Below the pieces are notes generated by a model. That model was given only the letters and a program-made list of their open reading frames with translations, was not told the DNA's origin and searched no databases. Below, in pieces: positions 2,400 through 15,983 of a DNA stretch of 22,291 nucleotides. The position numbers and the translations under genes are program-made. Positions within the stretch are counted from its first letter, which is position 1; every line of letters begins with the position of its first letter. Source of the DNA: a virus (lineage: Duplodnaviria; Heunggongvirae; Uroviricota; Caudoviricetes); the IMG/VR virus record IMGVR_UViG_3300032257_000005, positions 64,001-86,291 of that record; one strand, 5' to 3'.

Positions 2400-2440
2400 G
2401 CCTCCTTGCTGTAATTGAATTCTAATTACACTTTGGAGGC
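2400..2440 (+). promoter_or_regulatory. SD-sequestering hairpin upstream of the tail tube gene
   Basis: GCCTCC (2400-2405) pairs with GGAGGC (2435-2440); inner stem TGTAATT/AATTACA. Confidence 0.65.
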
Positions 2441-2447
2441 TTTTCTA

Positions 2448-3647
2448 ATGGGACAACAATTTTCAGATTCAAACCGAGTAGGTGTACGTTATATAGCAGA
2501 GGCTTCATTTGCTGTTCAACCTACTGGCCCTAATATGCAGGAGTTAAATTTTACTTCTGAATCCTTTAAATCAAATGTAAATACCGTTACATCAGATACT
2601 ATCCGTTCAGACCGAAACGTATCAGACATTACACAAGTTGGTGGTGGTGCTGGTGGTGATGTTGGTTTTGAATTACGTTATGGTGATATAGATACTTTGC
2701 TTGCTGGCGCATTACAAGGTGCATGGGCAACGACTACTGTATCCGCAACAGTTGCATCATCTTACTTTTCCGGTGCTGATATCCATGTTAACGATGCTTT
2801 AACGGCTGCTGATAATATATTAGTGGGTCAATTACTACGTGTAGCAAATGCTTCTGCAATAGCTAACGATGGTGACTATCGAGTAACCGGCGTTTCTGCC
2901 GTAGGTGCATCAACAACAATCGTAACACTTGCTAATGCAAGTTCTGGTGTTGCTGCTGCTTTTACTTCAGATGTATTTGCTGCCACGACTACATTACGCG
3001 GTAAGAATTTACGTAACGGTGTACTTGCACAAAGCTATACGATTGAAAAACAATTCGCCGATGTATCAGCTACAGCCGTTTATACTGGTATGAGAGCAAC
3101 CACACTTAGCCTTGCGTTTGATTCACAGGCTATCATGACTGGTACTATCGGTTTTGCCGGTGTTGGTCAAACAGCCGCTTCAGCAACAATAGCTTCAGCT
3201 ACAACAGCCGCTTCAACTAATCTTGTTATGAACGCATCTAATAATGTTGCGCGTATATGGGAAGGTGGACAGGCTATCACAGGCATTGCATTTCAAAGCG
3301 TTTCAATTGATTTAAACAATAACCCGCGTGATCAACCTGTAGTCGGTTCTGCAAACCTTGCCGGTATCGGTACAGGTCGTTGTGAAGTAACTGGATCTAT
3401 GACCGCTTATTTTGAAAATAATACTTTGATTAATAAGTTTACGGCAGGTACTAAATCAAATTTCCGTTTTCAAATTACCGATGCAAGTGGAAATAGTTAT
3501 GTTGTCGATATTCCAAATACTACCTATACAGATATGACTATTGTAGCGGGTGGCCCTAATCAGGATATCGTACAAGAAGGATCATGGGGTGCTGCTGTAG
3601 ATACTACAGGTACTTATGCAATCCAAATAGATGCACTTGATGCATAA
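2448..3647 (+). CDS. Major tail tube protein (Phage_tube_2-like)
   Basis: GGAGG SD before ATG 2448 (track start 2415 is a TTG extension); SDTIRSDRNV motif; position before chaperones and tape measure. Confidence 0.85.
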   Translation: MGQQFSDSNRVGVRYIAEASFAVQPTGPNMQELNFTSESFKSNVNTVTSDTIRSDRNVSDITQVGGGAGGDVGFELRYGDIDTLLAGALQGAWATTTVSATVASSYFSGADIHVNDALTAADNILVGQLLRVANASAIANDGDYRVTGVSAVGASTTIVTLANASSGVAAAFTSDVFAATTTLRGKNLRNGVLAQSYTIEKQFADVSATAVYTGMRATTLSLAFDSQAIMTGTIGFAGVGQTAASATIASATTAASTNLVMNASNNVARIWEGGQAITGIAFQSVSIDLNNNPRDQPVVGSANLAGIGTGRCEVTGSMTAYFENNTLINKFTAGTKSNFRFQITDASGNSYVVDIPNTTYTDMTIVAGGPNQDIVQEGSWGAAVDTTGTYAIQIDALDA

Positions 3648-4086: not shown

Positions 4087-4397
4087 AATGGAACTTAGAA
4101 TGGGGCAAACAAGAAACGTTTTTAGAGGGGCTTGTACAGCAAGGAATGAATGTACAAGCGTTAAGGAATAAGCCAATACTTGAATCAAAGTATGAAAATA
4201 TTTATAACGCTTATTCATTAATGCATAGAAGTAGAAGGGCGGAAATGTCTGGTGCATTACCAATACCTTTAACTGAAATAGAATGTTATTGCAGATTATT
4301 TGATGTTATTGATAGGGAATTATTAATAACAGTTGTTATAGCAATGGATAATGCTTACTTGGATTGGGTTGAAGAACATGCCAACAGAAATACTTGA
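4071..4397 (+). CDS. gpT-like C-terminal part of the frameshifted tail chaperone
   Basis: Track ORF 4146..4397 extends upstream to the slippery site; RSR...PIPLTEI...AMDNAYLDW resembles gpT-type sequences. Confidence 0.75.
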   Translation, partial: VVNCLKWNLEWGKQETFLEGLVQQGMNVQALRNKPILESKYENIYNAYSLMHRSRRAEMSGALPIPLTEIECYCRLFDVIDRELLITVVIAMDNAYLDWVEEHANRNT

Positions 4398-7300
4398 ATT
4401 AAAAGTTGATTCCAAAGGTGTTGTAACAGGTCTGAAACGAGCTGAACAAGCTAATGACAAGTTTTCAAGAAATGTACAATCAACATCTAAAAAAACTGGT
4501 GGCGCATTTTCAAAACTTCAAGGTTCTATTTTTAGTTTAAAAGCTGCATTTGTAGGTTTAGGTGTAGGATTTTTATTTGTTAATGCAATTAAATCATCAA
4601 TAGAATTTAATGCAACTATATCTAATCTATCTGCTATTACTGGTGCTACTGGTAAAGATTTAGATTTCTTAAAAGATAAAGCAAAAGAATTTGGTGAAAC
4701 AACTACTTTATCTGCATCTGGTGTTGCTGAAGCATTTAAATTAATTGCATCTGCTAAACCTGATCTTTTGGAAAGTGGTGCGGCATTAGCGTTTGTAACT
4801 AAAGAAGCTATTACCCTTGCTGAAGCTGCAAACATATCTATTCAGCAATCTGCAATATCATTAGGTAGCGCATTAAACCAATATGGTAAGGGTGCTGAAT
4901 CTGCAACTAAATTTATTGATGTTCTTGCGGCTGGTGCAAAATTTGGTGCATCTGAAATAGCTGATACAAGCCAAGCATTAAAACAAGCGGGTACGGTTGC
5001 GGCATCTGCTGGAATTTCATTTCAACAATTAAATGCAAGTATTCAAATATTAGCGGGTGTTGGTCTTAAAGGTGCTAGAGCTGGTGTTGGCTTAAGAAAT
5101 GCATTTTTACTATTACAAAAAAATGGCATCGGTGTAACTAATGGGATATTCAATTTAAATAATGCATTAGAAGAATTAGCACCTGATGTTGATAATACAA
5201 CTAAATTAATGGAAATATTTGGTACTGAAAATGTTGTTGCAGGTCAAAGATTAATTTCAGCAAGAAAAGAATTAATAGCAATGACAAGTAAGGTTAATGA
5301 AAATGGTGTTGCATTAAAACAAGCTAGAACTAATGTAGATAATTTACAAGGTGATTTAAAAAATCTTGGAAGTGCGTTTGAAGGTTTGCAATTAGCTATA
5401 ACTGAAGGTGCTGATTCTCCATTAAGAGGATTAGTACAATCATTAGCAGATCTTTTGAGATTTATGTCAGATAATATTGATGTAATTATTTCATTTACTA
5501 AAGCATTAGGTACATTTTTTATTCTGACAAAGATAGTCAATTTATTCACTAAATTAAAAGCTGGTGTTACAGCAATGATAGCTGCAAATAATTTAGCGGC
5601 TGCGGCAACGGCTGTAACAACTGAAACAATGGTTGCATCGGCTGCGGCAACAACGGCTGCAAGTACATCAATGGCTGTACTTGGTACTACTGCATTAACA
5701 ACATCAAAACAATTAGCTCTAGCGAATAAAACAGTTAAATTAAGTAGTGCAACTACAGCCGGTCTTGGTACTGTAATGAAAAAGACAACTGTAGGCATGG
5801 GTTTAATGGGTGCTGCTGGTGCTGGATTACGCGGCATTATGACTTTACTAGGTGGCCCTGTTGGGTTATTTATTACAGCCGCTAGTGCTTTAGTGTTTTT
5901 TACTAGCAACATGAAATCTGCTGAAGAAAGAATGGGTGAATTAAATGGTGAAGTTGATAAATTAAATGCTTCATTAGGTAAACTATCAAGATTAGAAGTT
6001 GCTGCTGCTTTTGATACTGCAAAAGATAAGGCATCTGATTTTCAGAAAGAAATAGCAAACGCTCAAACTGAAATAAAAGGTATTCGACAGCAACAATTAA
6101 GATTTGGTCTAAGCACTTCTATTTATAAAGGCATGGAAAAGCAAATTAGAAATATAAAAATACAGGTAGAACAATGGAATGAAGGATTGATTAGAGTTCA
6201 AGCTACTGCTGAAAAATTAAGACAGCAAAAAGACTTTTTAGTACCTGCTTTAGCAGATACACCAGATCGAGCTGCATTAGCTAAATCAATTAATGATGCT
6301 AATATAAAAAGAAAAGAAGATGCAAAGCCTGAAAATATTGCAAAAGGTCTTGAATCTAAAATAGCTTTTGCTACAGCACCATTTTTAGGTGGTCAAACTG
6401 AATTAAGAAAAGCACAACAAAAATTAGAGGAATTACAAAAGCTGAAACAAGAATTATCTAATCCTGTTATATTAAAAGCTGTTTTAAAAATTGGTGGAAA
6501 AAAAGCAATAGATAATCTTAATTTTGCATTAGATGCGGCAAAGAAAAATGTTGATGATATAAATGTAAAATTAAGTAAGCCTGTTAAAACAGTTGGGCAA
6601 AAATTTGCTGATGATCTTAAGACGCAAATTAATTTATATGGAAAAACAGAACGTGAAATAAAAATCGCGCAAGTTGCACAAGAAGCATATAACGCTGGCA
6701 TAACAAAACAAATAGGTTTAATTAAAATGCTGGCAGGTGAGTTATTTGATCTAAATAAAGCACGTCAAATAAGAGAAGGTGTTGATCCTACTATTGCAAT
6801 ACAACGTGAGATTGATCAGGTAAACAGATTGCGCGGCCAATCTGGTGCGGCTGGTATTACTGATGATCAAGCAAGACAAGCTATTAGGAATTTAACAGGT
6901 GTTGCTACTGCTACTGATAAACTAAAAGTACAGGAAGATATTTTAAATCTTGCTATTCGTGAAGGTGTATTAACAATACCTGAACAAACTAGGGCGTTAT
7001 CTGAATTAGCGTTTGCTAAGGAAAAGGTACGTCAAGCCTCAATGGATCTAACTTCTGCCGAACGTGAAGCAATAGTAATACAGCGTTCAGAAATTTCTTT
7101 ACAGCAAGCACGAGATCAAGCTGATTTTACAAAAGGTAGAATAACCACTATTGATTTAATTAAGCGACAAAATAAAACAACAAAAGCAAGTATTGAATTA
7201 TTGAAAAAAGAAGCGGCTGCTGCTAAAGCTGCTGGAATGGAATTAAAAGAAGCTAGAATAAATGAACAAATTATCTCATTAGAAGCGTCATTAACAAGTG

Positions 7301-7836
7301 CATCTGATTTAGTACGTGGTGATTTTCAAGATGCATTTACCGATACGTTTGATAGTTTGATTATGGGAACTAAATCAACAAGTGATGCATTTAAAGATTT
7401 AGCAAAAAGTATATTAGCTTCATTTAGTAGAGTGATTTCACAAAACTTAGGTGAAAGTTTAGCTAATTCATTATTCAGTTCAAGCACATCAAGCGGCGGT
7501 GGAGGCGGTAGTAGTGGCTTTGGTGGAATAATTGAAAGTGCTTTAGGTGCTGTATTTGGTGGTGGTAGTGAAAGTGGTGGCGGCTTTGCTGGTGGTGGTT
7601 CGTTTCGTGTAGGTGGTTCAGGTGGTGTTGATTCTCAATTAGTACAATTTAAAGCATCACCTAACGAAACAGTAACGGTTACTAAGCCTGATCAAAAAGG
7701 TGGCAACGGCGGAATGACGGTCAATAATTATTTCACGATATCTGCACCTAACGGAAACGTTAGCGCACAATCAGAACAGCAAGTAGCAACGGCTGCTGGT
7801 CGTGGTATACAGAACGCAATGCGAAGGAATACATAA
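4378..7836 (+). CDS. Tape measure protein (TP901-family core)
   Basis: About 1150 aa, Ala/Gly-rich; LSAITGATGKDL...AKEFGETT core; C-terminal FAGGGSFRVGGSGGVDSQLVQFKASPNE. Start MPTEIL at 4378 preferred over 4351. Confidence 0.93.
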   Translation: MPTEILELKVDSKGVVTGLKRAEQANDKFSRNVQSTSKKTGGAFSKLQGSIFSLKAAFVGLGVGFLFVNAIKSSIEFNATISNLSAITGATGKDLDFLKDKAKEFGETTTLSASGVAEAFKLIASAKPDLLESGAALAFVTKEAITLAEAANISIQQSAISLGSALNQYGKGAESATKFIDVLAAGAKFGASEIADTSQALKQAGTVAASAGISFQQLNASIQILAGVGLKGARAGVGLRNAFLLLQKNGIGVTNGIFNLNNALEELAPDVDNTTKLMEIFGTENVVAGQRLISARKELIAMTSKVNENGVALKQARTNVDNLQGDLKNLGSAFEGLQLAITEGADSPLRGLVQSLADLLRFMSDNIDVIISFTKALGTFFILTKIVNLFTKLKAGVTAMIAANNLAAAATAVTTETMVASAAATTAASTSMAVLGTTALTTSKQLALANKTVKLSSATTAGLGTVMKKTTVGMGLMGAAGAGLRGIMTLLGGPVGLFITAASALVFFTSNMKSAEERMGELNGEVDKLNASLGKLSRLEVAAAFDTAKDKASDFQKEIANAQTEIKGIRQQQLRFGLSTSIYKGMEKQIRNIKIQVEQWNEGLIRVQATAEKLRQQKDFLVPALADTPDRAALAKSINDANIKRKEDAKPENIAKGLESKIAFATAPFLGGQTELRKAQQKLEELQKLKQELSNPVILKAVLKIGGKKAIDNLNFALDAAKKNVDDINVKLSKPVKTVGQKFADDLKTQINLYGKTEREIKIAQVAQEAYNAGITKQIGLIKMLAGELFDLNKARQIREGVDPTIAIQREIDQVNRLRGQSGAAGITDDQARQAIRNLTGVATATDKLKVQEDILNLAIREGVLTIPEQTRALSELAFAKEKVRQASMDLTSAEREAIVIQRSEISLQQARDQADFTKGRITTIDLIKRQNKTTKASIELLKKEAAAAKAAGMELKEARINEQIISLEASLTSASDLVRGDFQDAFTDTFDSLIMGTKSTSDAFKDLAKSILASFSRVISQNLGESLANSLFSSSTSSGGGGGSSGFGGIIESALGAVFGGGSESGGGFAGGGSFRVGGSGGVDSQLVQFKASPNETVTVTKPDQKGGNGGMTVNNYFTISAPNGNVSAQSEQQVATAAGRGIQNAMRRNT

Positions 7837-8696: not shown

Positions 8697-9730
8697 GTAA
8701 AGTTATAACGGCTGAAATGTCAGCACATTTAGAAAGTGGAAACACAACTTTATCTACATGCTGGAGAATGATACGTGAAGATGGTGTTGTACTTGGTTTT
8801 ACTGATAGCGTTGTTGATTTAGAAGTATCCAGTGTTGTATATGAAGCTGCTACCGGATATACACCTTCTGCATTAACTAAGAATGATAATATGGCCGTGG
8901 ATAATATGGATATTCTTGGTTTACTTAATTCCGATGGTATTACTGATGCGGATATTGAAGCTAAGAAATACGACAATGCAGAAGTATTTACATTCATGGT
9001 TAATTATAACGATTTAACGATGGGTCAAATAAAAATGGGTCGTGGTCGTATCGGTAATATAACAACACAAGATGAACAATATGTTGCTGAATACAGATCA
9101 TTAGCGCAATTACTTCAACAACCAGTAGGTGAACGTTATTCGTTACGATGTCGAGCTGAATTAGGTGATACAAGATGTGGTGTAAATTTATTGCCTGATG
9201 TATGGGCTTCATCTACTGCATATGACATTGATGATATTGTTAGAGCATCTAGTTATGATGCTAGAAGATATGTTTGTACGGCATCTGGTACAAGTTCTGG
9301 AAGTGAACCAATTTGGAATACAACAATAGGAAGTACAACTACTGACAATACAATAACATGGACTGCATTTGATGCATATACACATCAAGGTACAGTTTCA
9401 TCAGCACCAAGTAGACGACATTTTATAGATACAACATTAGGAAAAGATACTGGTTTTTTTGATTATGGCGTTTTGACTTGGACAAGTGGGAATAATTCTG
9501 GATATACAATGGAAATAAAGTCATATGTAAAAAGCATGGCTTTCTATAATTTTTATCTTTACGAAAATATGCCTTATAGTATTGAGGTTGGAGATACATT
9601 TACAGTAACAATAGGTTGTGATAAAGACTTGGCTACATGTAGAGATACGTTTGATAATATTGTTAATATGAGAGCGGAACCGTTTATCCCCGGTATTGAT
9701 AAAGTCACACAATTTGGTGGTCAAACATGA
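8693..9730 (+). CDS. DUF2163 / BR0599-family baseplate hub (GTA g13-like) with four conserved Cys
   Basis: TCWRMIREDGVVLGFTD; CRAELGDTRC; GCDKDLATCRDTFDNIVNMRAEPFIPG. Confidence 0.9.
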   Translation: MSKVITAEMSAHLESGNTTLSTCWRMIREDGVVLGFTDSVVDLEVSSVVYEAATGYTPSALTKNDNMAVDNMDILGLLNSDGITDADIEAKKYDNAEVFTFMVNYNDLTMGQIKMGRGRIGNITTQDEQYVAEYRSLAQLLQQPVGERYSLRCRAELGDTRCGVNLLPDVWASSTAYDIDDIVRASSYDARRYVCTASGTSSGSEPIWNTTIGSTTTDNTITWTAFDAYTHQGTVSSAPSRRHFIDTTLGKDTGFFDYGVLTWTSGNNSGYTMEIKSYVKSMAFYNFYLYENMPYSIEVGDTFTVTIGCDKDLATCRDTFDNIVNMRAEPFIPGIDKVTQFGGQT

Positions 9731-10134
9731 TTACCAGAAAACAAATAGTGGATGAAGCGCGTACATGGATTGGAACACCTTTTCAGCATCAAGCGCGTGT
9801 TAAAGGTCGTGGTGTTGATTGTATTGGTGTCGTTCAACAAGTAGCGCAAGCATTAAGCATAACTAAATATGATCGTAGTGATTACGGTCGTGAACCTGCT
9901 AACGGTGAATTACAAAAAGCATTGAATGAACATTTAATAAAAATAGATACGTTGGAAAACGGTTGTATCTTATTAATGAAATTTATCAATGAACCACAAC
10001 ATGTTGCTATCTATACAGATAAAAATACGATTATTCATGCATATGCCAATGTAGGTAAATGTGTTGAACATCGGTTAGATCCAAAATGGGAAAGACGAAT
10101 TTATTCAATGTATAAATACATAGGTGTTGAATAG
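9727..10134 (+). CDS. NlpC/P60 tail-associated peptidase (GTA g14-like)
   Basis: ARTWIGTPFQHQ, GVDCIG (Cys), PQHVAI (His), IIHA. Confidence 0.92.
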   Translation: MITRKQIVDEARTWIGTPFQHQARVKGRGVDCIGVVQQVAQALSITKYDRSDYGREPANGELQKALNEHLIKIDTLENGCILLMKFINEPQHVAIYTDKNTIIHAYANVGKCVEHRLDPKWERRIYSMYKYIGVE

Positions 10135-11804
10135 TGGCTTCCGTTGCTGGCATATTAATAAAAGTTGTTGTTGGCGTTGTTGTCAATGCAATCACTCGCG
10201 CCATATTTAAACCCGATCCAATTCAAGGCCCACGATTAAATGATTTAAACGTAAATACAAATTCGTTTGGCTCAGAAATACCGATAATTCGTGGTTCGAT
10301 GCGAGCCGCTACTAATACGATATGGGCAGTCGATTTAAAAGAAGTTGCAACATCATCTTCTGGTGGTAAAGGTGGTGGACAAAAAAGCACAACATATGCT
10401 TATTACGGTGATTTTGCAGTAGCGTTATGTAAAGGTGAAGTAACAGGTGTTGCTAAGATATGGGCAGATTCAATATTAATCTATGATGTTTCTGTTGGTG
10501 GTGATATAGAAACAATTATTAATAGTTTTGATTTGTTAAGTGCGATATCTATTTACACTGGATCAGAAACACAATTACCGGATTCGCTTATAGAAAGTTA
10601 TGAAGGTGTTGGAAATGTGCCTGCATTCAGAGGATTAGTTTATATTGTATTTTCAGATTTAGCGTTAGAAAGATTCGGTAATAGATTACCAAACATAACT
10701 GCGGAAGTTATAGAAAAAGGTGCTTTTTCTGGAAGCAACTTTGATCAGTTTTCTAATCCCGTTACAAGAGAAGATGGTTCTTTTTTATATGACGATGGTT
10801 TGGTTAGTATCGGTGTATGGGATACTTTAGCGTCAGGAACTTTCACTGAATATAAATATGATTTAGATAATGCTTTATTAAGTAAAACTATATTAAGTTT
10901 GGATGGAACTTTGGCAGCATCACCAGCTAGTCAAAGTAACTGCAATAATAATCATAATTATACTGCTTTTGAACATACACTAGGAACGAATAGAACAGAG
11001 TTGTGGTATAGAAGTGATTTTCAATACATGTTGGATAAGACTGGTGCATTAGGATCAAACGCTTGTTCTGGAACGTTTGGTTATTTGTTTGTACCTAATG
11101 GAGGCGCTTATATTTTTGCGCCTCATGCAGACGGATCAATAAATCGGTATCAAATAGATGCAGCAAATAATCTTCTTAGTAATGGAGGCATACCAGAAAA
11201 ATGGTATTATCCTAGCGATTTAGATACCAATCTTTCTAATGTTTACGTTAGTGATGAAAATGAAATATATTACTATCATAAAAAACTTTCAGGTGGTTAC
11301 AATTTATTAAAATTAGATTTAAACCTTAATGTATTAGTAACATGGACTAGTATACCGACACTTTTCAATGGAAACTTTACCGTAGGAAAACAACCAAACA
11401 CAAGTCGAAATGTTGTTGTTTTTAATACTAGTAGCGGCACTTACAGTGCGTATTTTTTAGATGATGATGGAACATTAACATTAATAGGAACGTTATCTTT
11501 AAAAACAAACGGCGGTGCTAAGTATCTTGCACACGGATTTTTTTCTACACCATCAGAAATTTTTTATACTTCCGCTTTATTGTCGTCCAGTTCAGTGGCA
11601 TTATCGAGTGTGGTTGTAGATGTTTGTGATGGTATTGGCTTAGATAGAACTGATTTAAACTTAACAGAATTATCGGCTTCTACTATTGATGGGTATTCAA
11701 CATTACCTTCACCTTCTAGGAATCAGATACAGCCTTTACAACAAGCATATCATTTTGATGTTGTTGAATCTGATTTTAAACTAAAGTTCATATCGAGAAA
11801 CTAA
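10134..11804 (+). CDS. Tail-tip (g15/J-like) N-terminal module, paralog 1
   Basis: GTG start overlaps the upstream TAG; GPRL-DL-V...IPIIRG...NTIW, IWAD, PAFRGLVYIVF...L..FGNRLPNITAEV; ends FDVVESDFKLKFISRN. Confidence 0.88.
   Translation: MASVAGILIKVVVGVVVNAITRAIFKPDPIQGPRLNDLNVNTNSFGSEIPIIRGSMRAATNTIWAVDLKEVATSSSGGKGGGQKSTTYAYYGDFAVALCKGEVTGVAKIWADSILIYDVSVGGDIETIINSFDLLSAISIYTGSETQLPDSLIESYEGVGNVPAFRGLVYIVFSDLALERFGNRLPNITAEVIEKGAFSGSNFDQFSNPVTREDGSFLYDDGLVSIGVWDTLASGTFTEYKYDLDNALLSKTILSLDGTLAASPASQSNCNNNHNYTAFEHTLGTNRTELWYRSDFQYMLDKTGALGSNACSGTFGYLFVPNGGAYIFAPHADGSINRYQIDAANNLLSNGGIPEKWYYPSDLDTNLSNVYVSDENEIYYYHKKLSGGYNLLKLDLNLNVLVTWTSIPTLFNGNFTVGKQPNTSRNVVVFNTSSGTYSAYFLDDDGTLTLIGTLSLKTNGGAKYLAHGFFSTPSEIFYTSALLSSSSVALSSVVVDVCDGIGLDRTDLNLTELSASTIDGYSTLPSPSRNQIQPLQQAYHFDVVESDFKLKFISRN
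10453..10484 (+). repeat. 32-nt exact direct repeat, copy 1 (CTAAGATATGGGCAGATTCAATATTAATCTAT)
   Basis: Identical to 12163-12194; encodes KIWADSILIY. Confidence 0.95.
11753..11798 (+). repeat. 3' direct repeat, copy 1 (33 nt exact; 46 nt with 2 mismatches)
   Basis: TTTTGATGTTGTTGAATCTGATTTTAAACTAAA is identical to 13478-13510. Confidence 0.95.
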
Positions 11805-13526
11805 ATGGCTTCAGTCGTATTTTCATCGTTAGGGCAATCAATAGGTAGTAACTTAGGCGGTGCTGTTGGTGGTGCTATCGGTAGCGTTGTGGGTTCAATA
11901 ATTGGTGAAGCATTATTTCCGAGCGGTGCAGATCGTTTCGGCCCACGGTCAGATAATTTAAAAGTTATTTCTTCTACCTTCGGAAAAGATATAAATAAGA
12001 TATATGGAACGGCAAGAACAAGCACTAATATAATATGGTCTACAGATCTAATAGAAACTGCAACGGAACAAAGCGGTAAAGGTAGTGGCCCAAGTTTTAC
12101 AACATATTCATACGCGGGTAATTTTGCAGTTGGTGTATGTGAAGGTGAAATATTAGGTATATCTAAGATATGGGCAGATTCAATATTAATCTATAATAAA
12201 AGTCATGATGCTACACCTGCTGAAATAATAGAATCTAAATTGTCTTTTGACAGTATCAGTATTTATACTGGAACAGAAGATCAATTACCGGATGCATTAA
12301 TAGAAAGTTATGAAGGAGTTGGTAATGTACCCGCCTTTCGCGGTTTGTCATATATTGTTTTTGAAGGATTGGATTTAGAAAAGTTCGGCAGAAGATTACC
12401 TATAATAACTGTAGAGGTTTCCAGAAAAGGCACTTTATCAGATGATTGGAAATTAATAACAACGGCTCCCTTTGGTTTTTTTTCAACCATGTTAGCAAGT
12501 AACGGGACGCTGTACGCTACTTCTGGATTAGATTTATATTACTCTAATGACATAGGGCTTACTTGGATATACATGAGATATTTTGTTCCTTTTCTTGGTA
12601 ATGTTGCTGAGTTACTTGAATTATATGATAGAGATGGGTATTTTATTATTAAGGTTAATTCAGATGCTTGGAGATCGTTAGATTACGGTGTTACGTGGGA
12701 AAAATTTACGATTGCAGGTGGATCAAGTAATCGTGGTTTTTCTTATATGGGAAATGGTGTAATGATAGTATATGGTCTTTTTACACATTATTATTCACAT
12801 GATTACGGTGATAATTGGTCTACATTTACACTTCCTGCATCAATCGTATTTTATTTAGTGATCAGAGTACACGACGATCTATATTTATTATTTCAAAGTA
12901 ATAATGTTTATGCTTCTTATGATCGAGCTGTAACTTGGTCATATAGAGGAAGCTGGTCGGGTGCTGCTGTTATAGCTTTTAGTGGTTTTTATATGGAAGA
13001 TGTTGATACTGTATTAATTTCAGATGGTGATGGAAATATATATACATCTACCGATAAAGGTATAAATTGGTCTTTTGTAGTGAAACCAGAAGGTAGTCAT
13101 CTTTCTGTTAAATATGGAGATAATGGAACAATTTTAGCTAGCAATGGAAATAGACTTAGAGTGTCTACAGATTATGGTTTAACTTTTCCTATAGATTTAG
13201 TTACTTCAGGTGATGTTAGAGGTAAAATTTATTATGGGTCAGATTGTTATTTAATTACTACTGATTCAACTGCTAAATCAGTTTATTTAAAAACTGGCCC
13301 ATTGATAACAGATGCAACAGAAAATTTATCTGCTATCGCTTCTTCAATTTGTATAGATGCAGGTCTTGTTTCTAATGATGTAGATGTAACCGATTTAACC
13401 GATATCGTTAATGGTTATATTATAAGCGAAAAAAGTGCGAGTAGAGATTATTTAGTATCTTTGAGCCACGGTTATTCTTTTGATGTTGTTGAATCTGATT
13501 TTAAACTAAAATTCGTATCGAGATAA
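11805..13526 (+). CDS. Tail-tip (g15/J-like) N-terminal module, paralog 2, with Asp-box/BNR repeats
   Basis: Same framework motifs as paralog 1; six S-x-D-x-G-x-T/N-W-like repeats; ends FDVVESDFKLKFVSR. Confidence 0.88.
   Translation: MASVVFSSLGQSIGSNLGGAVGGAIGSVVGSIIGEALFPSGADRFGPRSDNLKVISSTFGKDINKIYGTARTSTNIIWSTDLIETATEQSGKGSGPSFTTYSYAGNFAVGVCEGEILGISKIWADSILIYNKSHDATPAEIIESKLSFDSISIYTGTEDQLPDALIESYEGVGNVPAFRGLSYIVFEGLDLEKFGRRLPIITVEVSRKGTLSDDWKLITTAPFGFFSTMLASNGTLYATSGLDLYYSNDIGLTWIYMRYFVPFLGNVAELLELYDRDGYFIIKVNSDAWRSLDYGVTWEKFTIAGGSSNRGFSYMGNGVMIVYGLFTHYYSHDYGDNWSTFTLPASIVFYLVIRVHDDLYLLFQSNNVYASYDRAVTWSYRGSWSGAAVIAFSGFYMEDVDTVLISDGDGNIYTSTDKGINWSFVVKPEGSHLSVKYGDNGTILASNGNRLRVSTDYGLTFPIDLVTSGDVRGKIYYGSDCYLITTDSTAKSVYLKTGPLITDATENLSAIASSICIDAGLVSNDVDVTDLTDIVNGYIISEKSASRDYLVSLSHGYSFDVVESDFKLKFVSR
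12163..12194 (+). repeat. 32-nt exact direct repeat, copy 2
   Basis: Identical to 10453-10484. Confidence 0.95.
13478..13523 (+). repeat. 3' direct repeat, copy 2
   Basis: Matches 11753-11798. Confidence 0.95.
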
Positions 13527-13527
13527 T

Positions 13528-14973
13528 ATGACTACTTATACAATACCGATCGAAGATTTAGCCGCTTATAATTATGGCAGTACAATGCCAGATAAGCTGA
13601 AGCGCACTCGACTTGATGAACTGGAATTACCTAATCAAGTTGAAGTTATTTATCTCAATTCAATTACAGATTATCAACAAGGTTATGAATACGCACAACG
13701 ACAAATAAAAAATGTTGATGGTGTTTTTACACTTCAGTTACCTATTAGTTTTGCCGGTGGTGATACACCTGCACAAATAGCAGATATTATTTTATATAAC
13801 GTTTGGACTGAACGAGTCCAGTATGAAATTACGCTACCGTTTAAATATGTAAAATTAGATGCTTCGGATAGATTGTCAATTACTTTAAATAATGTAACGC
13901 ATTTAATTCGCATTACAAATATCGACTATGAAGCACCTTTGTTAGTTAAGATAAAGGGTGTTGCAGATGAAACAAGTTTATACACTTCTAACGCAGTAGG
14001 TGGAACGGATAATCAAATAGGTCAGACCGTTCCAGTAATAGGCGCAACTTCTATAAACTATTTGGATATTCCGATGTTAAGAGATTTGGACAATTCTAGT
14101 GGTTACTATGCTGCTGCTAGTGGGTACAACACAAATTGGCCGGGTTGCGTTATATATAAATCAACTGATGGTGGTGTTGTTTACAACGAACTTAATTCAT
14201 TAGTAACAGCATCAACAAAAGGAACTACGATTGGTGCGTTAGGTGATACTTCATATCCTTGGCAATGGGATTATGCAAATACAGTTAATGTTTCACTCAT
14301 ATCTGGAACATTATCTGGCGAAACTGAAATAAATGTTTTAAATGGATCAAATTGGTGCTTAGTAGGTAGTGAGATAATTGCTTTTAAAACTGCAACACTT
14401 GAAGGGGATGGAACATATACGTTAAGTGGTTTGATGCGTGGTTTAAAAGGAACTGATTGGGCTACAGGAACACATGTATCAGGTGATAGATTTATTTTAT
14501 TGGATTCATCTTCAATATTACGAATATTAGAAGATTCAAGCCTTATCGGTACAAGCGCAAAATATAAAGCAGTAACGCTCAGTAAGTCGATAGCAGATAC
14601 ATCACTACAAGATTTTACGAATAATGCCGTTTGTTTAAAGCCTTATTCCCCGGTTGATGTAAAAGGATCACAAGCAACAAACGGTAACTGGACTTTTACA
14701 TGGAAAAGGCGAACTCGTTTTGGTGGTGAATGGCGAGATGCTGTTGATGCTACACTTAATGAAGATTCAGAAAAATATTTAGTTGAGATACATAGCAATC
14801 CATCTGCATCGACAATAGTTAATACATTGGCTACAGTGACAAGTGAAACCGCAACATACACAAGCGCACAAGTAGTTACTGATTTTGGAAGCGCACAATC
14901 AAATTTAACTATTGGTGTATTTCAATTATCAGAAACAGTCGGCAGAGGATATATTAGGAAGGTAACAGTATGA
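13528..14973 (+). CDS. Tail-tip C-terminal module (Phage-tail_3 / g15 C-terminus-like)
   Basis: RLDELELPNQVEVIY...DYQQG; LDIPML; WPGCVIYKSTDGG; LSGLMRGLKGT; PYSPV; WKRRTRFGGEW; LNEDSEKY. Confidence 0.88.
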   Translation: MTTYTIPIEDLAAYNYGSTMPDKLKRTRLDELELPNQVEVIYLNSITDYQQGYEYAQRQIKNVDGVFTLQLPISFAGGDTPAQIADIILYNVWTERVQYEITLPFKYVKLDASDRLSITLNNVTHLIRITNIDYEAPLLVKIKGVADETSLYTSNAVGGTDNQIGQTVPVIGATSINYLDIPMLRDLDNSSGYYAAASGYNTNWPGCVIYKSTDGGVVYNELNSLVTASTKGTTIGALGDTSYPWQWDYANTVNVSLISGTLSGETEINVLNGSNWCLVGSEIIAFKTATLEGDGTYTLSGLMRGLKGTDWATGTHVSGDRFILLDSSSILRILEDSSLIGTSAKYKAVTLSKSIADTSLQDFTNNAVCLKPYSPVDVKGSQATNGNWTFTWKRRTRFGGEWRDAVDATLNEDSEKYLVEIHSNPSASTIVNTLATVTSETATYTSAQVVTDFGSAQSNLTIGVFQLSETVGRGYIRKVTV

Positions 14974-15983
14974 CAACTCCAAAATTAGATCTGCCAGAAA
15001 TAGCAGAATCACAAGCGTCTAAATATTTAACGCATAATCAAGCCTTGCGTGATTTAGATGCTATTACACAGCCTCACATTATTAGTCAGCAACCAGATAT
15101 TCCTGTATCTACTTTTGCTGAAGGCGATACTTATATTATTACCTCTGCGGTAGCCAGTGGTAATTGGAACGGACAAAAAAATAATATAGCTTATTACTTT
15201 AATTCGGCATGGATTATTGTTTCGGCAGTTACGGACGGTTGGCGTGTTTATGATAATAATTTAGGTGTTGAATTAATTTATGCAAATTCTTCTTGGGGTA
15301 CACACATAACGGACGGCATTTCTTCTGCAACGATTACAGATAAAGGTCAACTTCTAGTCGGTACTGGAAATGCTTTGGTATCTGTTTTACCTATAGGATC
15401 ACCGGGACAAGTGTTAAAAGTGGACGCGGCAGGTTCAACGGTTGAATGGGCTGCGGTCGCTGGTACTGGTGATGTTACTGGCCCTGCTTCTGCAACGGCA
15501 AACGGTATTCCTAGATTTAGTGGTTCAACTGGTAAAGCTATTATTACATCTAATTGGGCAATCGTTTCTGTTACGGATATTATGACTGCTGGCGGTACGC
15601 TTGATATGAACAATGAGGTTATCAAGCAAGCAGAAATACAAGATTACTCTGAAACAGTTGTATCTGTAAATGTATCTGCCGGTGTTACTGATGTGAGTTT
15701 GGATATGACAACGGCTAACGTTTTCCATGTTGTGCTTCAAGCAAATGCTTCTGTCGGTTTTACTAATCCACCGGCAAGTTTAAAAAATGGGTCACTTACT
15801 GTTTACTTAGATCAAGACGGTACGGGATCAAGGACATTAACGTTAAAAGATACTATAATTTATGCTAGTGGTGCAGCCTCAACTATTAGTAGCGGTGCAA
15901 GCGAAAAAGATATATGGACATTTACAACTAGGGACGGCGGTACAACTTGGTATGCAATGGCGGCGGGACGTAAATTCGCATGA
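14970..15983 (+). CDS. DUF2793-containing tail fibre / adapter
   Basis: TPKLDLPEIAESQASKYLTHNQALRDLD N-terminus; C-terminal TRDGGTTWYAMAAG adapter-like end. Confidence 0.85.
   Translation: MTTPKLDLPEIAESQASKYLTHNQALRDLDAITQPHIISQQPDIPVSTFAEGDTYIITSAVASGNWNGQKNNIAYYFNSAWIIVSAVTDGWRVYDNNLGVELIYANSSWGTHITDGISSATITDKGQLLVGTGNALVSVLPIGSPGQVLKVDAAGSTVEWAAVAGTGDVTGPASATANGIPRFSGSTGKAIITSNWAIVSVTDIMTAGGTLDMNNEVIKQAEIQDYSETVVSVNVSAGVTDVSLDMTTANVFHVVLQANASVGFTNPPASLKNGSLTVYLDQDGTGSRTLTLKDTIIYASGAASTISSGASEKDIWTFTTRDGGTTWYAMAAGRKFA

What the first reader, a model, noticed from the sequence alone, without database searches (positions are those of the whole stretch)
10134..14973. Split tail-tip gene: two alternative N-terminal modules share one C-terminal half
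Seen: two full paralogs (556 and 573 aa) share the g15/J-like framework and the ending FDVVESDFKLKF[I/V]SR but have unrelated central domains (about 10715-11570 and 12420-13300). One ORF (MTTYTIPIEDL...) carries the rest. Established from family motifs: in GTA-g15-like proteins this junction is normally continuous. Both paralogs are intact and coupled (TAA-ATG, TAA-T-ATG). Inference: a plug-in tail tip in which the common C-half docks non-covalently with either N-module, giving mixed tips or two virion types with different receptor ranges, with no invertase or DGR. Alternatives: paralogs 1 and 2 are in frame across a single TAA (readthrough), and the C-half frame is open from 13510 (+1/-2 shift). 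This is the strongest candidate for an undescribed system.
Basis: partly seen in the sequence, partly recalled or inferred. Interest (0 to 1): 0.85.

Follow-up and report, generated by a model that had tools for sequence, protein, structure and literature searches.

The report
Split phage tail-tip gene, alternative front halves
In this uncultured 86-kb phage the large tail-tip protein is encoded as two alternative front halves, each with a different probable sugar-binding propeller, plus one shared back half; other phages carry two or three front halves in the same layout, so one phage may be able to build tail tips with different host-recognition parts.

Summary
ORF1 (10134-11804) and ORF2 (11805-13526) share a g15/megatron-like N-terminal domain (54% identity) and a ~78-residue tail (40%). 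Their middles are unrelated. ORF3 (13528-14973) carries the rest of the protein.

- **Where the cut lies.** It falls inside the megatron central domain. Pfam Phage-tail_3 is complete only when an N-module tail and ORF3 are read together.
- **The split is real.** It is not an assembly error or recoding. Four metagenomic loci are cut at the same residue, with different junction frames. In one, the NlpC/P60 gene lies between the two halves.
- **The layout recurs.** About 85-90% of ~145 informative IMG/VR relatives have one continuous gene. Two unrelated contigs carry three tandem N-modules before a single C-half. On an N-domain tree each of those arrays forms its own clade.
- **The middles.** ORF2's is a six-Asp-box BNR propeller. 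ORF1's is all-beta and possibly a propeller.
- **What is not shown.** That both N-modules dock on ORF3, giving mixed or alternative tips, is inference. The ORF1-tail/ORF3 complex prediction gave only weak support (0.40; best control 0.17).

I found no published description. Earlier scan notes on other genomes record related stand-alone N-domain copies and other cut points in this family. Verdict: a new variant of a known kind.

The parts
9727..10134 (+). NlpC/P60 tail peptidase (g14-like), immediately upstream; its TAG stop overlaps the GTG start of ORF1
   Evidence: Pfam PF00877, E 3.4e-08; sequence
10134..11804 (+). N-module 1 (ORF1, 556 aa): front half of a split megatron/g15-like tail-tip protein
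   Evidence: PDB 6TBA/6TEH g15, E 1.6e-24; PHROG 4271, E 7.5e-80
10134..10730 (+). ORF1 hydrophobic N-terminal helix (iris/penetration-like) plus adhesin-like domain
   Evidence: Aligns to g15 51-204; 54% identical to ORF2; hydrophobic N-terminus
10731..11564 (+). ORF1 variable middle domain, all-beta and possibly a lectin-type beta-propeller, in the place of the g15 peripheral domain
   Evidence: No Pfam hit. An exhaustive phmmer search found no true homologue. The ESM Atlas model has TM 0.56-0.70 to beta-propeller clusters, low confidence. It aligns end to end with the L005 N-module at 30% identity.
11565..11801 (+). ORF1 tail: first part of the central (Phage-tail_3) domain, ending in the motif FDVVESDFKLKFISRN
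   Evidence: PF13550 profile positions 6-34, E 9e-4; matches g15 765-829
11805..13526 (+). N-module 2 (ORF2, 573 aa): second front half, starting directly after the ORF1 stop
   Evidence: g15, E 3.5e-34; PHROG 4271, E 1.2e-78
12441..13289 (+). ORF2 variable middle domain: BNR/Asp-box beta-propeller of the Ycf48/sortilin-Vps10 type, with six Asp-boxes at residues 247, 291, 331, 371, 415 and 454
   Evidence: PF15902, E 6.3e-10. Six motif matches against 0.03 expected. Atlas structural matches at TM 0.8 to PSII_BNR/Ycf48 clusters.
13290..13523 (+). ORF2 tail: first part of the central domain, ending in FDVVESDFKLKFVSR
   Evidence: Matches g15 764-826. Read through with X into ORF3, it completes PF13550 to positions 4-163 of 164.
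13528..14973 (+). Shared C-half (ORF3, 481 aa): rest of the central domain (to about residue 160) plus the fibre-binding domain
   Evidence: PF13550 positions 39-163 and PF23666, E 6e-24; PHROG 4271 positions 824-1306; R4C megatron 8GTC, E 1.5e-22
10453..10484 (+). Exact 32-nt block shared with 12163-12194 in ORF2, inside the adhesin-like domain
   Evidence: 12 of 13 synonymous codons identical here, against roughly 50-60% elsewhere
11753..11785 (+). Exact 33-nt block shared with 13478-13510, covering the last beta-hairpin of both tails
14970..15983 (+). DUF2793 protein, probable tail fibre that binds the fibre-binding domain of ORF3
   Evidence: PF10983, E 1.7e-17; PHROG tail-fibre families. 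The binding role is inferred from RcGTA and R4C (PMC7296036, PMC10276861).
7836..9730 (+). Distal tail protein (DUF2460) and baseplate hub (gp84_N plus BR0599), partners of the megatron in the tip
   Evidence: PF09343, E 2.6e-49; PF09931, E 1.8e-52; PF09356, E 2.7e-23

Best explanation
This is the tail-tip 'megatron' (RcGTA g15-like) gene of a complete 86-kb siphophage. It is naturally cut into a front half and a back half, and the front half is present as two tandem paralogs.

Each front half (N-module) has three parts:
- a hydrophobic plug helix plus adhesin-like domain;
- a different outward-facing middle domain (a BNR propeller in ORF2, an unrelated all-beta domain in ORF1);
- the first ~80 residues of the central domain.

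The single back half (ORF3) supplies the remaining ~155 residues of the central domain and the fibre-binding domain.

Shown:
- the anatomy;
- the cut lies inside one Pfam and structural domain;
- the cut is conserved in relatives;
- arrays of two to three N-modules before one C-half recur, and on an N-domain tree the paralogs of L107 and of L108 each cluster by genome.

Inferred:
- The three genes are co-translated from one operon.
- Either N-module completes the central domain of ORF3 by fragment complementation.
- The trimeric tip therefore carries ORF1-type and/or ORF2-type modules, either mixed within a tip or as two kinds of virion.
- This gives the phage two different glycan- or receptor-binding heads on one common chassis, without any DNA switch.
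For: 1. The domain spans the cut. ORF3 alone matches PF13550 positions 39-163. The ORF2 tail joined to ORF3 with an X matches 4-163 of 164, and the score rises from 57.8 to 74.9 bits. The ORF1 tail matches positions 6-34. In RcGTA the central domain is residues 745-984 (PMC7296036). The tails map to 764-829.
2. The cut is clean. Fused relatives read ...KFVKRGGSSxxTIP..., and the window reads ...KFVSR | MTTYTIP... with nothing lost.
3. The same cut occurs in L005, L006 and L087. L090, L107 and L108 are cut about 25-30 residues later. Junction frames and overlaps differ. In L087 the NlpC/P60 gene lies between the halves.
4. Arrays recur. L107 has three N-modules (595, 633 and 630 aa) and one C-half. 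L108 has three (315, 594 and 604 aa) and one C-half. Each module has the N-domain and the tail, and the middles share only 18-26% identity.
5. On an N-domain tree of 161 sequences, the L107 trio (support 0.92), the L108 trio (1.0) and the L141 pair (0.94) each form their own clade. This fits separate in-situ duplications, or concerted evolution.
6. Both window paralogs are intact although synonymous sites are near saturation. About 50-60% of codons for identical residues are the same, close to the ~48% seen in the unrelated middles. They are therefore old copies kept under selection.
7. Both keep a hydrophobic N-terminal helix.
8. The genes abut with stop-start coupling, and promoter- or terminator-like sites are not enriched between them.
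9. Complex prediction of ORF3 1-165 with ORF1 470-556 gave weak support. Score 0.40, best of 3 controls 0.17, runs agree in at least 77% of contacts, partner pLDDT at least 65. The mark was reached by 58 of 80 solved complexes and 2 of 110 mismatched pairs. At 0.60 or under it was reached by only 7 of those 80 solved complexes and by both of those mismatches. Solved fused homologues (6TEH, 8GTC) exist, so the pass may reflect likeness to them rather than binding.
Against: - There is no direct evidence that either N-module is in virions or binds ORF3.
- The megatron is a trimer with three sites (PMC7296036, PMC10276861), so two or three paralogs must compete for sites. Nothing shows that they do so productively.
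- AF2 models of ORF1 and ORF2 were poor (pLDDT 50 and 47), so the fold of the ORF1 middle and any trimer contacts remain uncertain.
- The two tails are only 40% identical apart from the last hairpin, so their affinities for ORF3 could differ greatly.
- Arrays are rare. I found three, possibly four, and none among the ~157 best IMG/VR loci.
- The ligands of both middle domains are unknown.
Confidence: 0.55

Rival explanations
1. Only one N-module is the structural partner of ORF3. The other is a maintained paralog with a different job: a soluble glycan-binding or decoy protein, a part that sits elsewhere on the tip through its adhesin-like domain, or a spare cassette kept for recombination.
For: - The trimer offers only three sites (PMC7296036).
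- The tails are only 40% identical.
- N-domain-only genes without a tail exist in L018 and L021, so the N-domain can apparently be used without being tied to the central domain.
- ORF1 has a weaker GTG start.
- The L005 N-module next to its C-half is ORF1-type, so the ORF2 type may be a later insertion.
Against: - Both paralogs keep the tail and its near-identical final hairpin, which makes sense only if both meet ORF3.
- In L107 and L108 all three array members keep the tail.
- Both keep the plug helix.
Confidence: 0.25
2. Recoding restores a single chain. This would be a +1 frameshift in 13510-13527 fusing ORF2 to ORF3, and/or readthrough of the in-frame TAA at 11802 fusing ORF1 to ORF2.
For: ORF1 and ORF2 are in the same frame across one TAA. 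The ORF3 frame is open for 18 nt upstream of its ATG.
Against: - Relatives with the same cut have other frame relations: -1 with ATGA or one-base overlaps in L005, L006 and L090, and a whole gene in between in L087.
- Array members in L107 and L108 are out of frame with each other.
- I saw no slippery motif at either junction by eye.
- ORF3 has its own ATG exactly where the homology resumes.
- An ORF1-ORF2 fusion would carry two plug domains.
Confidence: 0.04
3. Artefact or decay: an assembly or sequencing error, strain variants chained by the assembler, or a dying gene.
For: The record is a metagenome-assembled virus. Some other splits in the census may be frameshift errors, for example L055, L089 and L030.
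Against: - The same cut point occurs in independent samples at 41-60% identity.
- Start codons sit exactly at the cut.
- The paralogs are far too divergent to be strain variants (57% amino-acid identity in the best domain).
- The genome is complete, with terminal repeats.
- All three ORFs are long and intact in a 35% GC genome.
Confidence: 0.03

Closest known systems
Megatron protein g15 (Rcc01698) of RcGTA (PDB 6TBA/6TEH) and megatron of roseophage R4C (PDB 8GTC)
   Same: - Same domain order: plug helix, adhesin-like, peripheral, central, fibre-binding.
- Same operon context: tape measure, DUF2460 distal tail protein, hub, NlpC/P60 peptidase, megatron, DUF2793 fibre.
- Sequence homology at both ends.
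   Different: - There it is one chain of 1304 or 1447 aa. Here it is cut inside the central domain.
- The front half is duplicated.
- The TIM-barrel-like peripheral domain (PF13547) is replaced by a BNR propeller in ORF2 and by an unrelated all-beta domain in ORF1.
Other natural cuts of the J/g15-type tip: lambda gpI with gpJ, and phage Chi 'tail assembly protein 1' with its minor tail protein (PDB 8VJH)
   Same: Parts that are one chain in GTAs are separate genes in other phages and reassemble in the tip. This is recalled from my own knowledge and from earlier scan note e1-1909052. I did not test it here.
   Different: Those cuts lie between the plug and the rest, not inside the central domain. 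They do not come with alternative paralogous modules sharing one partner.
Phages with several receptor-binding proteins on conserved anchor domains (for example the CBA120 tailspikes and the K1-5/SP6 dual tailspikes; recalled from my own knowledge, not tested here)
   Same: Paralogs have conserved docking parts and different receptor-binding or enzymatic parts. All are expressed from one genome to widen recognition.
   Different: There the paralogs are side appendages with separate docking sites, and all are present together. Here the paralogs are the front half of the central channel-plugging tip protein, and they appear to compete for one site on a shared back half.
Mu G-segment and P1 C-segment inversion, and DGR tail-fibre diversification
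   Same: One constant part combines with alternative variable parts of a host-recognition protein.
   Different: Those use a DNA invertase or a reverse transcriptase and express one variant at a time. Here there is no RVT_1 or Resolvase match, and all parts lie in one co-directional operon.

Membership tests
Megatron / GTA g15-like tail-tip protein (PHROG 4271; PF13550 + PF23666) | N-terminal plug helix plus adhesin-like domain homologous to g15 1-229 | tested here: met
   ORF1 E 1.6e-24 and ORF2 E 3.5e-34 to 6TBA; PHROG 4271 E about 1e-79 for both
Megatron / GTA g15-like tail-tip protein (PHROG 4271; PF13550 + PF23666) | Complete central domain (Pfam Phage-tail_3) within the protein | tested here: not met
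   No single ORF holds it. ORF3 covers profile positions 39-163, the ORF1 tail covers 6-34, and only the read-through of ORF2 tail plus ORF3 covers 4-163.
Megatron / GTA g15-like tail-tip protein (PHROG 4271; PF13550 + PF23666) | C-terminal fibre-binding domain (Rcc01698_C) | tested here: met
   ORF3 PF23666, E 6.2e-24
Megatron / GTA g15-like tail-tip protein (PHROG 4271; PF13550 + PF23666) | One continuous polypeptide | tested here: not met
   Stops at 11802-11804 and 13524-13526. The cut is conserved in L005, L006 and L087.
Megatron / GTA g15-like tail-tip protein (PHROG 4271; PF13550 + PF23666) | GTA TIM-barrel-like peripheral domain (PF13547) | tested here: not met
   No PF13547 hit in ORF1 or ORF2. 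ORF2 has PF15902/BNR instead.
Megatron / GTA g15-like tail-tip protein (PHROG 4271; PF13550 + PF23666) | Operon context: DUF2460, hub (PF09931 + PF09356), NlpC/P60, then a DUF2793 fibre | tested here: met
Megatron / GTA g15-like tail-tip protein (PHROG 4271; PF13550 + PF23666) | Trimer closing the tail channel in the virion | not testable with these tools
   Needs virion structure or proteomics
Multi-receptor-binding-protein phages (paralogs with a common anchor and different heads) | Paralogs with conserved docking segments and unrelated receptor-binding domains | tested here: met
Multi-receptor-binding-protein phages (paralogs with a common anchor and different heads) | All paralogs present on the virion | not testable with these tools
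   There is no proteomic data for this uncultured phage.
Invertase- or DGR-driven tail-fibre switching | Site-specific invertase or reverse transcriptase in the genome | tested here: not met
   No PF00239 or PF00078 match in the whole 86-kb record. Tyrosine recombinases were not searched.
Programmed frameshift or readthrough fusion (lambda G/GT type) | Frame relation and slip site conserved among relatives | tested here: not met
   Junction frames differ: +1 here, -1 in L005, L006 and L090, and a gene in between in L087.

The most novel reading that the evidence does not exclude
A recurrently evolved 'combinatorial tail tip'. By cutting the megatron inside its central domain, siphophages turn the front half into an exchangeable cartridge. 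Arrays of two or three cartridges with different glycan-binding heads are co-expressed. They assemble by split-domain complementation onto one back half. The result would be heterotrimeric tips, or a mixed virion population, that recognise several surface glycans from one genome without any DNA switch. The exact 32- and 33-nt blocks may serve as recombination points for swapping cartridges.
Probability: 0.35. Interest if true: 0.75.

Novelty: new variant of a known kind. Interest (0 to 1): 0.6.

Why it matters
- **Host recognition.** The tail-tip (megatron/J-type) protein both plugs the tail channel and helps recognise the host. If one phage can load this central position with alternative front halves, that would be a way to widen or hedge host recognition. 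It differs from side-fibre paralogs, invertible segments and DGRs.
- **Structure.** The central domain appears to tolerate being split. That makes it a natural example of fragment complementation in a virion, and a possible handle for swapping recognition heads between laboratory phages.
- **Evolution.** The array paralogs of L107 and of L108 each cluster by genome, which hints at repeated origin under selection rather than accident. Concerted evolution could give the same tree.
- **Annotation.** 500-600-aa 'hypothetical proteins' after NlpC/P60 in GTA-like tail modules should be read as megatron front halves.

Tried and rejected
- **AF2 models.** The models of ORF1 and ORF2, built on 11-row alignments, were poor: mean pLDDT 49.6 and 46.8, with the middles below 50. 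I ran no fold search on them because the matches would be meaningless.
- **ORF1 middle, exhaustive search.** phmmer against 1.84 billion representatives found only short repeated-stretch matches in Ig/MBG-type adhesins. I read these as compositional, not homology.
- **ORF2 middle, word-index search.** It found only weak BNR-propeller relatives.
- **Cultured relatives.** Megablast of the whole window against cultured phages found nothing. A single-protein IMG/VR scan also found nothing.
- **P0002 contig.** It has genes of at least 441 aa, 551 aa and 480 aa, and is probably a second two-module array. No DNA was available, so this is unverified.
- **Complex prediction.** One job was run, for the ORF1 tail only, and gave weak support. 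The ORF2 tail, full modules and trimers were not tested.
- **Literature.** Searches for megatron with split or paralogs, for PF13550, and for tail tip with split gene found no description of this layout. This covers only the held library.
- **Rejected readings.** Assembly error, TAA readthrough and +1 frameshift were considered and set aside for the reasons given under rival explanations.
Full report
**What the window is**

The window is the last 22 kb of an 86,291-bp IMG/VR virus record with direct terminal repeats, judged complete. It holds a GTA-like siphophage tail module, in this order:
- tail tube protein (2415-3647);
- tape measure (4351-7836);
- DUF2460 distal tail protein;
- hub (PF09931 + PF09356);
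- NlpC/P60 peptidase;
- the three ORFs of the finding;
- a DUF2793 fibre-like protein;
- a LamG protein.

No cultured phage is close at the DNA level. The best protein matches are about 30-35% identical: PhiJL001, Microcystis phage Mwe-JY26 and Dinoroseobacter phages.

**Checking the observation**

- ORF1 (10134-11804, 556 aa) and ORF2 (11805-13526, 573 aa) share 54% identity over about 190 N-terminal residues and 40% over the last 78. Nothing significant lies between.
- The junctions are as described: AAC-TAA-ATG, and AGA-TAA-T-ATG.
- Both heads match RcGTA g15 residues 1-210 (E 1.6e-24 and 3.5e-34). Both tails match g15 about 764-829.
- ORF3 matches g15 963-1302, R4C megatron 1008-1438, and positions 824-1306 of the 1309-position PHROG 4271 profile.
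- Bardy et al. divide g15 into iris/penetration (1-46), adhesin-like (47-229), peripheral (230-744), central (745-984) and fibre-binding (985-1304) domains (PMC7296036).
- The cut therefore lies inside the central domain, and the variable middles occupy the place of the peripheral domain.
- Pfam agrees. ORF3 alone covers Phage-tail_3 positions 39-163. The ORF2 tail read through with an X into ORF3 covers 4-163 of 164, with a higher score. The ORF1 tail covers positions 6-34.

**Is the split real?**

Cultured relatives have one continuous gene. The closest metagenomic relatives of ORF3 do not.
- L005 (59% identical) and L006 (41%) have an N-module ending in the same motif, followed by a separate C-half. 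L090 is cut about 25-30 residues later.
- In L087 the N-module, the NlpC/P60 gene and the C-half follow in that order, so the halves are not even adjacent.
- An alignment across the junction shows a clean cut. Fused proteins read ...KFVKRGGSSxxTIP..., and the window reads ...KFVSR | MTTYTIP....
- L090, L107 and L108 are cut 25-30 residues further on, at Pfam positions about 47-51.
- Frame relations at the junction differ between loci. This argues against programmed frameshifting and against a shared sequencing error.

In two IMG/VR samples (80 loci chosen by C-half similarity, 77 more by N-domain similarity):
- about 73 of 78 and 58 of 67 informative loci are continuous;
- roughly a dozen are cut at one of three regions: before the tail, after the tail, or between the central and fibre-binding domains;
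- some of these could be frameshift errors.

**The same architecture elsewhere**

Searching the protein collection for stand-alone N-modules led to two contigs with three tandem N-modules and one C-half.
- L107: NlpC/P60, then modules of 595, 633 and 630 aa, then the C-half.
- L108: an NCBI metagenome contig with NlpC/P60, then modules of 315, 594 and 604 aa, then an 848-aa C-half.

Every module has the N-domain and the tail. Within an array the N-domains are 61-97% identical, the tails 53-59%, and the middles 18-26%. L108_1 has no middle at all.

On a FastTree of 161 N-domains:
- the L107 trio (support 0.92), the L108 trio (1.0) and the two megatrons of L141 (0.94) each form their own clade;
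- the window's two paralogs fall in a clade of five together with fused megatrons.

The arrays therefore look like separate in-situ duplications. Concerted evolution could mimic this pattern. The tree rests on a 170-residue domain and is midpoint rooted.

The P0002 contig (60% identical C-half) has genes of at least 441 aa and of 551 aa before the C-half. It is probably another two-module array, but no DNA was available.

**The variable middles**

- ORF2 has six Asp-boxes spaced 40-44 residues apart, against 0.03 expected by shuffling. It has a Sortilin-Vps10 match (E 6e-10). The Atlas model matches Ycf48/PSII_BNR propellers at TM about 0.8.
- These relatives are binding propellers, so I favour a binding role for the ORF2 middle.
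- ORF1's middle has no sequence relatives beyond distant N-modules: L005 at 30% identity end to end, and P0130 at 26%.
- It is predicted all-beta. An Atlas model of modest confidence resembles lectin-type propellers at TM 0.56-0.70. This assignment is tentative.
- In RcGTA and R4C the peripheral and added domains are proposed to bind carbohydrate (PMC7296036, PMC10276861).

**Age and maintenance of the paralogs**

- Among identical residues, codon identity is about 50-60% in the heads. This is close to the ~48% seen in the unrelated middles, so synonymous sites are near saturation.
- Both genes are nevertheless intact and conserved at the protein level, which argues for selection on both.
- Two exact blocks stand out, with 12 of 13 and 13 of 14 synonymous codons identical: 32 nt at 10453-10484 and 12163-12194, and 33 nt at 11753-11785 and 13478-13510.
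- They suggest gene conversion or selection at the nucleotide level. They could also mediate loss or exchange of the ORF2 cartridge. Another first-stage note flagged the same blocks.

**How it most likely works**

Shown:
- The operon encodes two front halves and one back half.
- The back half lacks the first quarter of its central domain.
- Each front half carries exactly that piece.

Inferred:
- ORF3 folds its central domain together with the tail of ORF1 or ORF2.
- Three such pairs, with three hub proteins, form the tip under the distal tail ring, as in RcGTA and R4C.
- The three plug helices close the channel.
- The tip displays ORF1-type and/or ORF2-type heads.

The one complex prediction (ORF3 1-165 with ORF1 470-556) gave weak support:
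- score 0.40, best control 0.17;
- runs agree in at least 77% of contacts, and partner pLDDT is at least 65;
- the mark was reached by 58 of 80 solved complexes and 2 of 110 mismatched pairs;
- at 0.60 or under it was reached by only 7 of those 80 solved complexes and by both of those mismatches;
- fused homologues are solved, so the pass may come from likeness.

Whether tips are mixed or uniform, and what each head binds, is open.

**Rivals**

The main rival is that only one module is the structural partner. The three-site limit, the divergent tails and tail-less N-domain genes in L018 and L021 speak for it. The retention of the tail in every array member speaks against it. Recoding and artefact are unlikely for the reasons given above.

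**Comparison with what is known**

- The parts belong to the megatron/g15 family by sequence and context, but two family features are not met: a single chain and the TIM-barrel-like peripheral domain.
- The family is already known to be divided differently among phages. The RcGTA paper describes domain swapping between hub and megatron. Earlier scan notes on other genomes report a stand-alone N-domain paralog in Hyphomicrobiales prophages and the Chi-type plug/hub split. I did not test those notes, apart from seeing similar N-domain-only genes in L018 and L021 and the bare module L108_1.
- I could not find described a cut inside the central domain combined with an array of alternative front halves sharing one back half.
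- I rate it a new variant of a known kind, of moderate to high interest. The functional claim still needs to be proven.

Noticed in passing
window 10453-10484 / 12163-12194 and 11753-11785 / 13478-13510: Two exact nucleotide blocks of 32 and 33 nt are shared by ORF1 and ORF2, although synonymous sites elsewhere are near saturation. Possible gene-conversion tracts or recombination points for swapping or deleting the ORF2 cartridge.
   Followed up: partly
L087:2-3178: The NlpC/P60 peptidase gene lies between the megatron N-module and the C-half, so gene order in the tip module is not fixed.
   Followed up: partly
L141:4725-12797: Two complete megatron sets lie in tandem, the first continuous and the second cut before the tail. 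Their N-domains are sister sequences on the tree. L122 also has a second N-domain gene after its megatron, at the contig end.
   Followed up: partly
L018:3788-9425 (and L021): The megatron is broken into about five genes: a 205-aa plug plus adhesin-like protein, a 543-aa second N-domain protein, genes of 140 and 369 aa, and then the tail plus C-half.
   Followed up: partly
L108:5275-6222: A 'bare' 315-aa N-module with no middle domain. Its N-domain is 97% identical to that of the third module in the same array, which points to recent duplication or gene conversion.
   Followed up: partly
loci L029, L041, L058, L070: Many fused megatrons of about 720-780 aa lack any peripheral domain, with the N-domain directly followed by the tail. 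Many ~300-aa proteins carry only the fibre-binding domain (Rcc01698_C). L120 and L152 are cut between the central and fibre-binding domains.
   Followed up: no
window 2415-3647: This 410-aa ORF with a TTG start is a large tail tube protein. Its best matches are Dinoroseobacter phages R5C and R26L and Pseudanabaena phage Pan1, at about 35% identity.
   Followed up: partly
L030:3-1553: An in-frame stop lies inside the C-half, at profile position 178, in an IMG/VR contig. It may be a pseudogene, a sequencing error or another genetic code.
   Followed up: no
Caulobacter phages C1, C2, CcrSC and relatives: These 300-kb Caulobacter phages show two separate places matching the C-half, so they may carry two megatron-like genes.
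   Followed up: no
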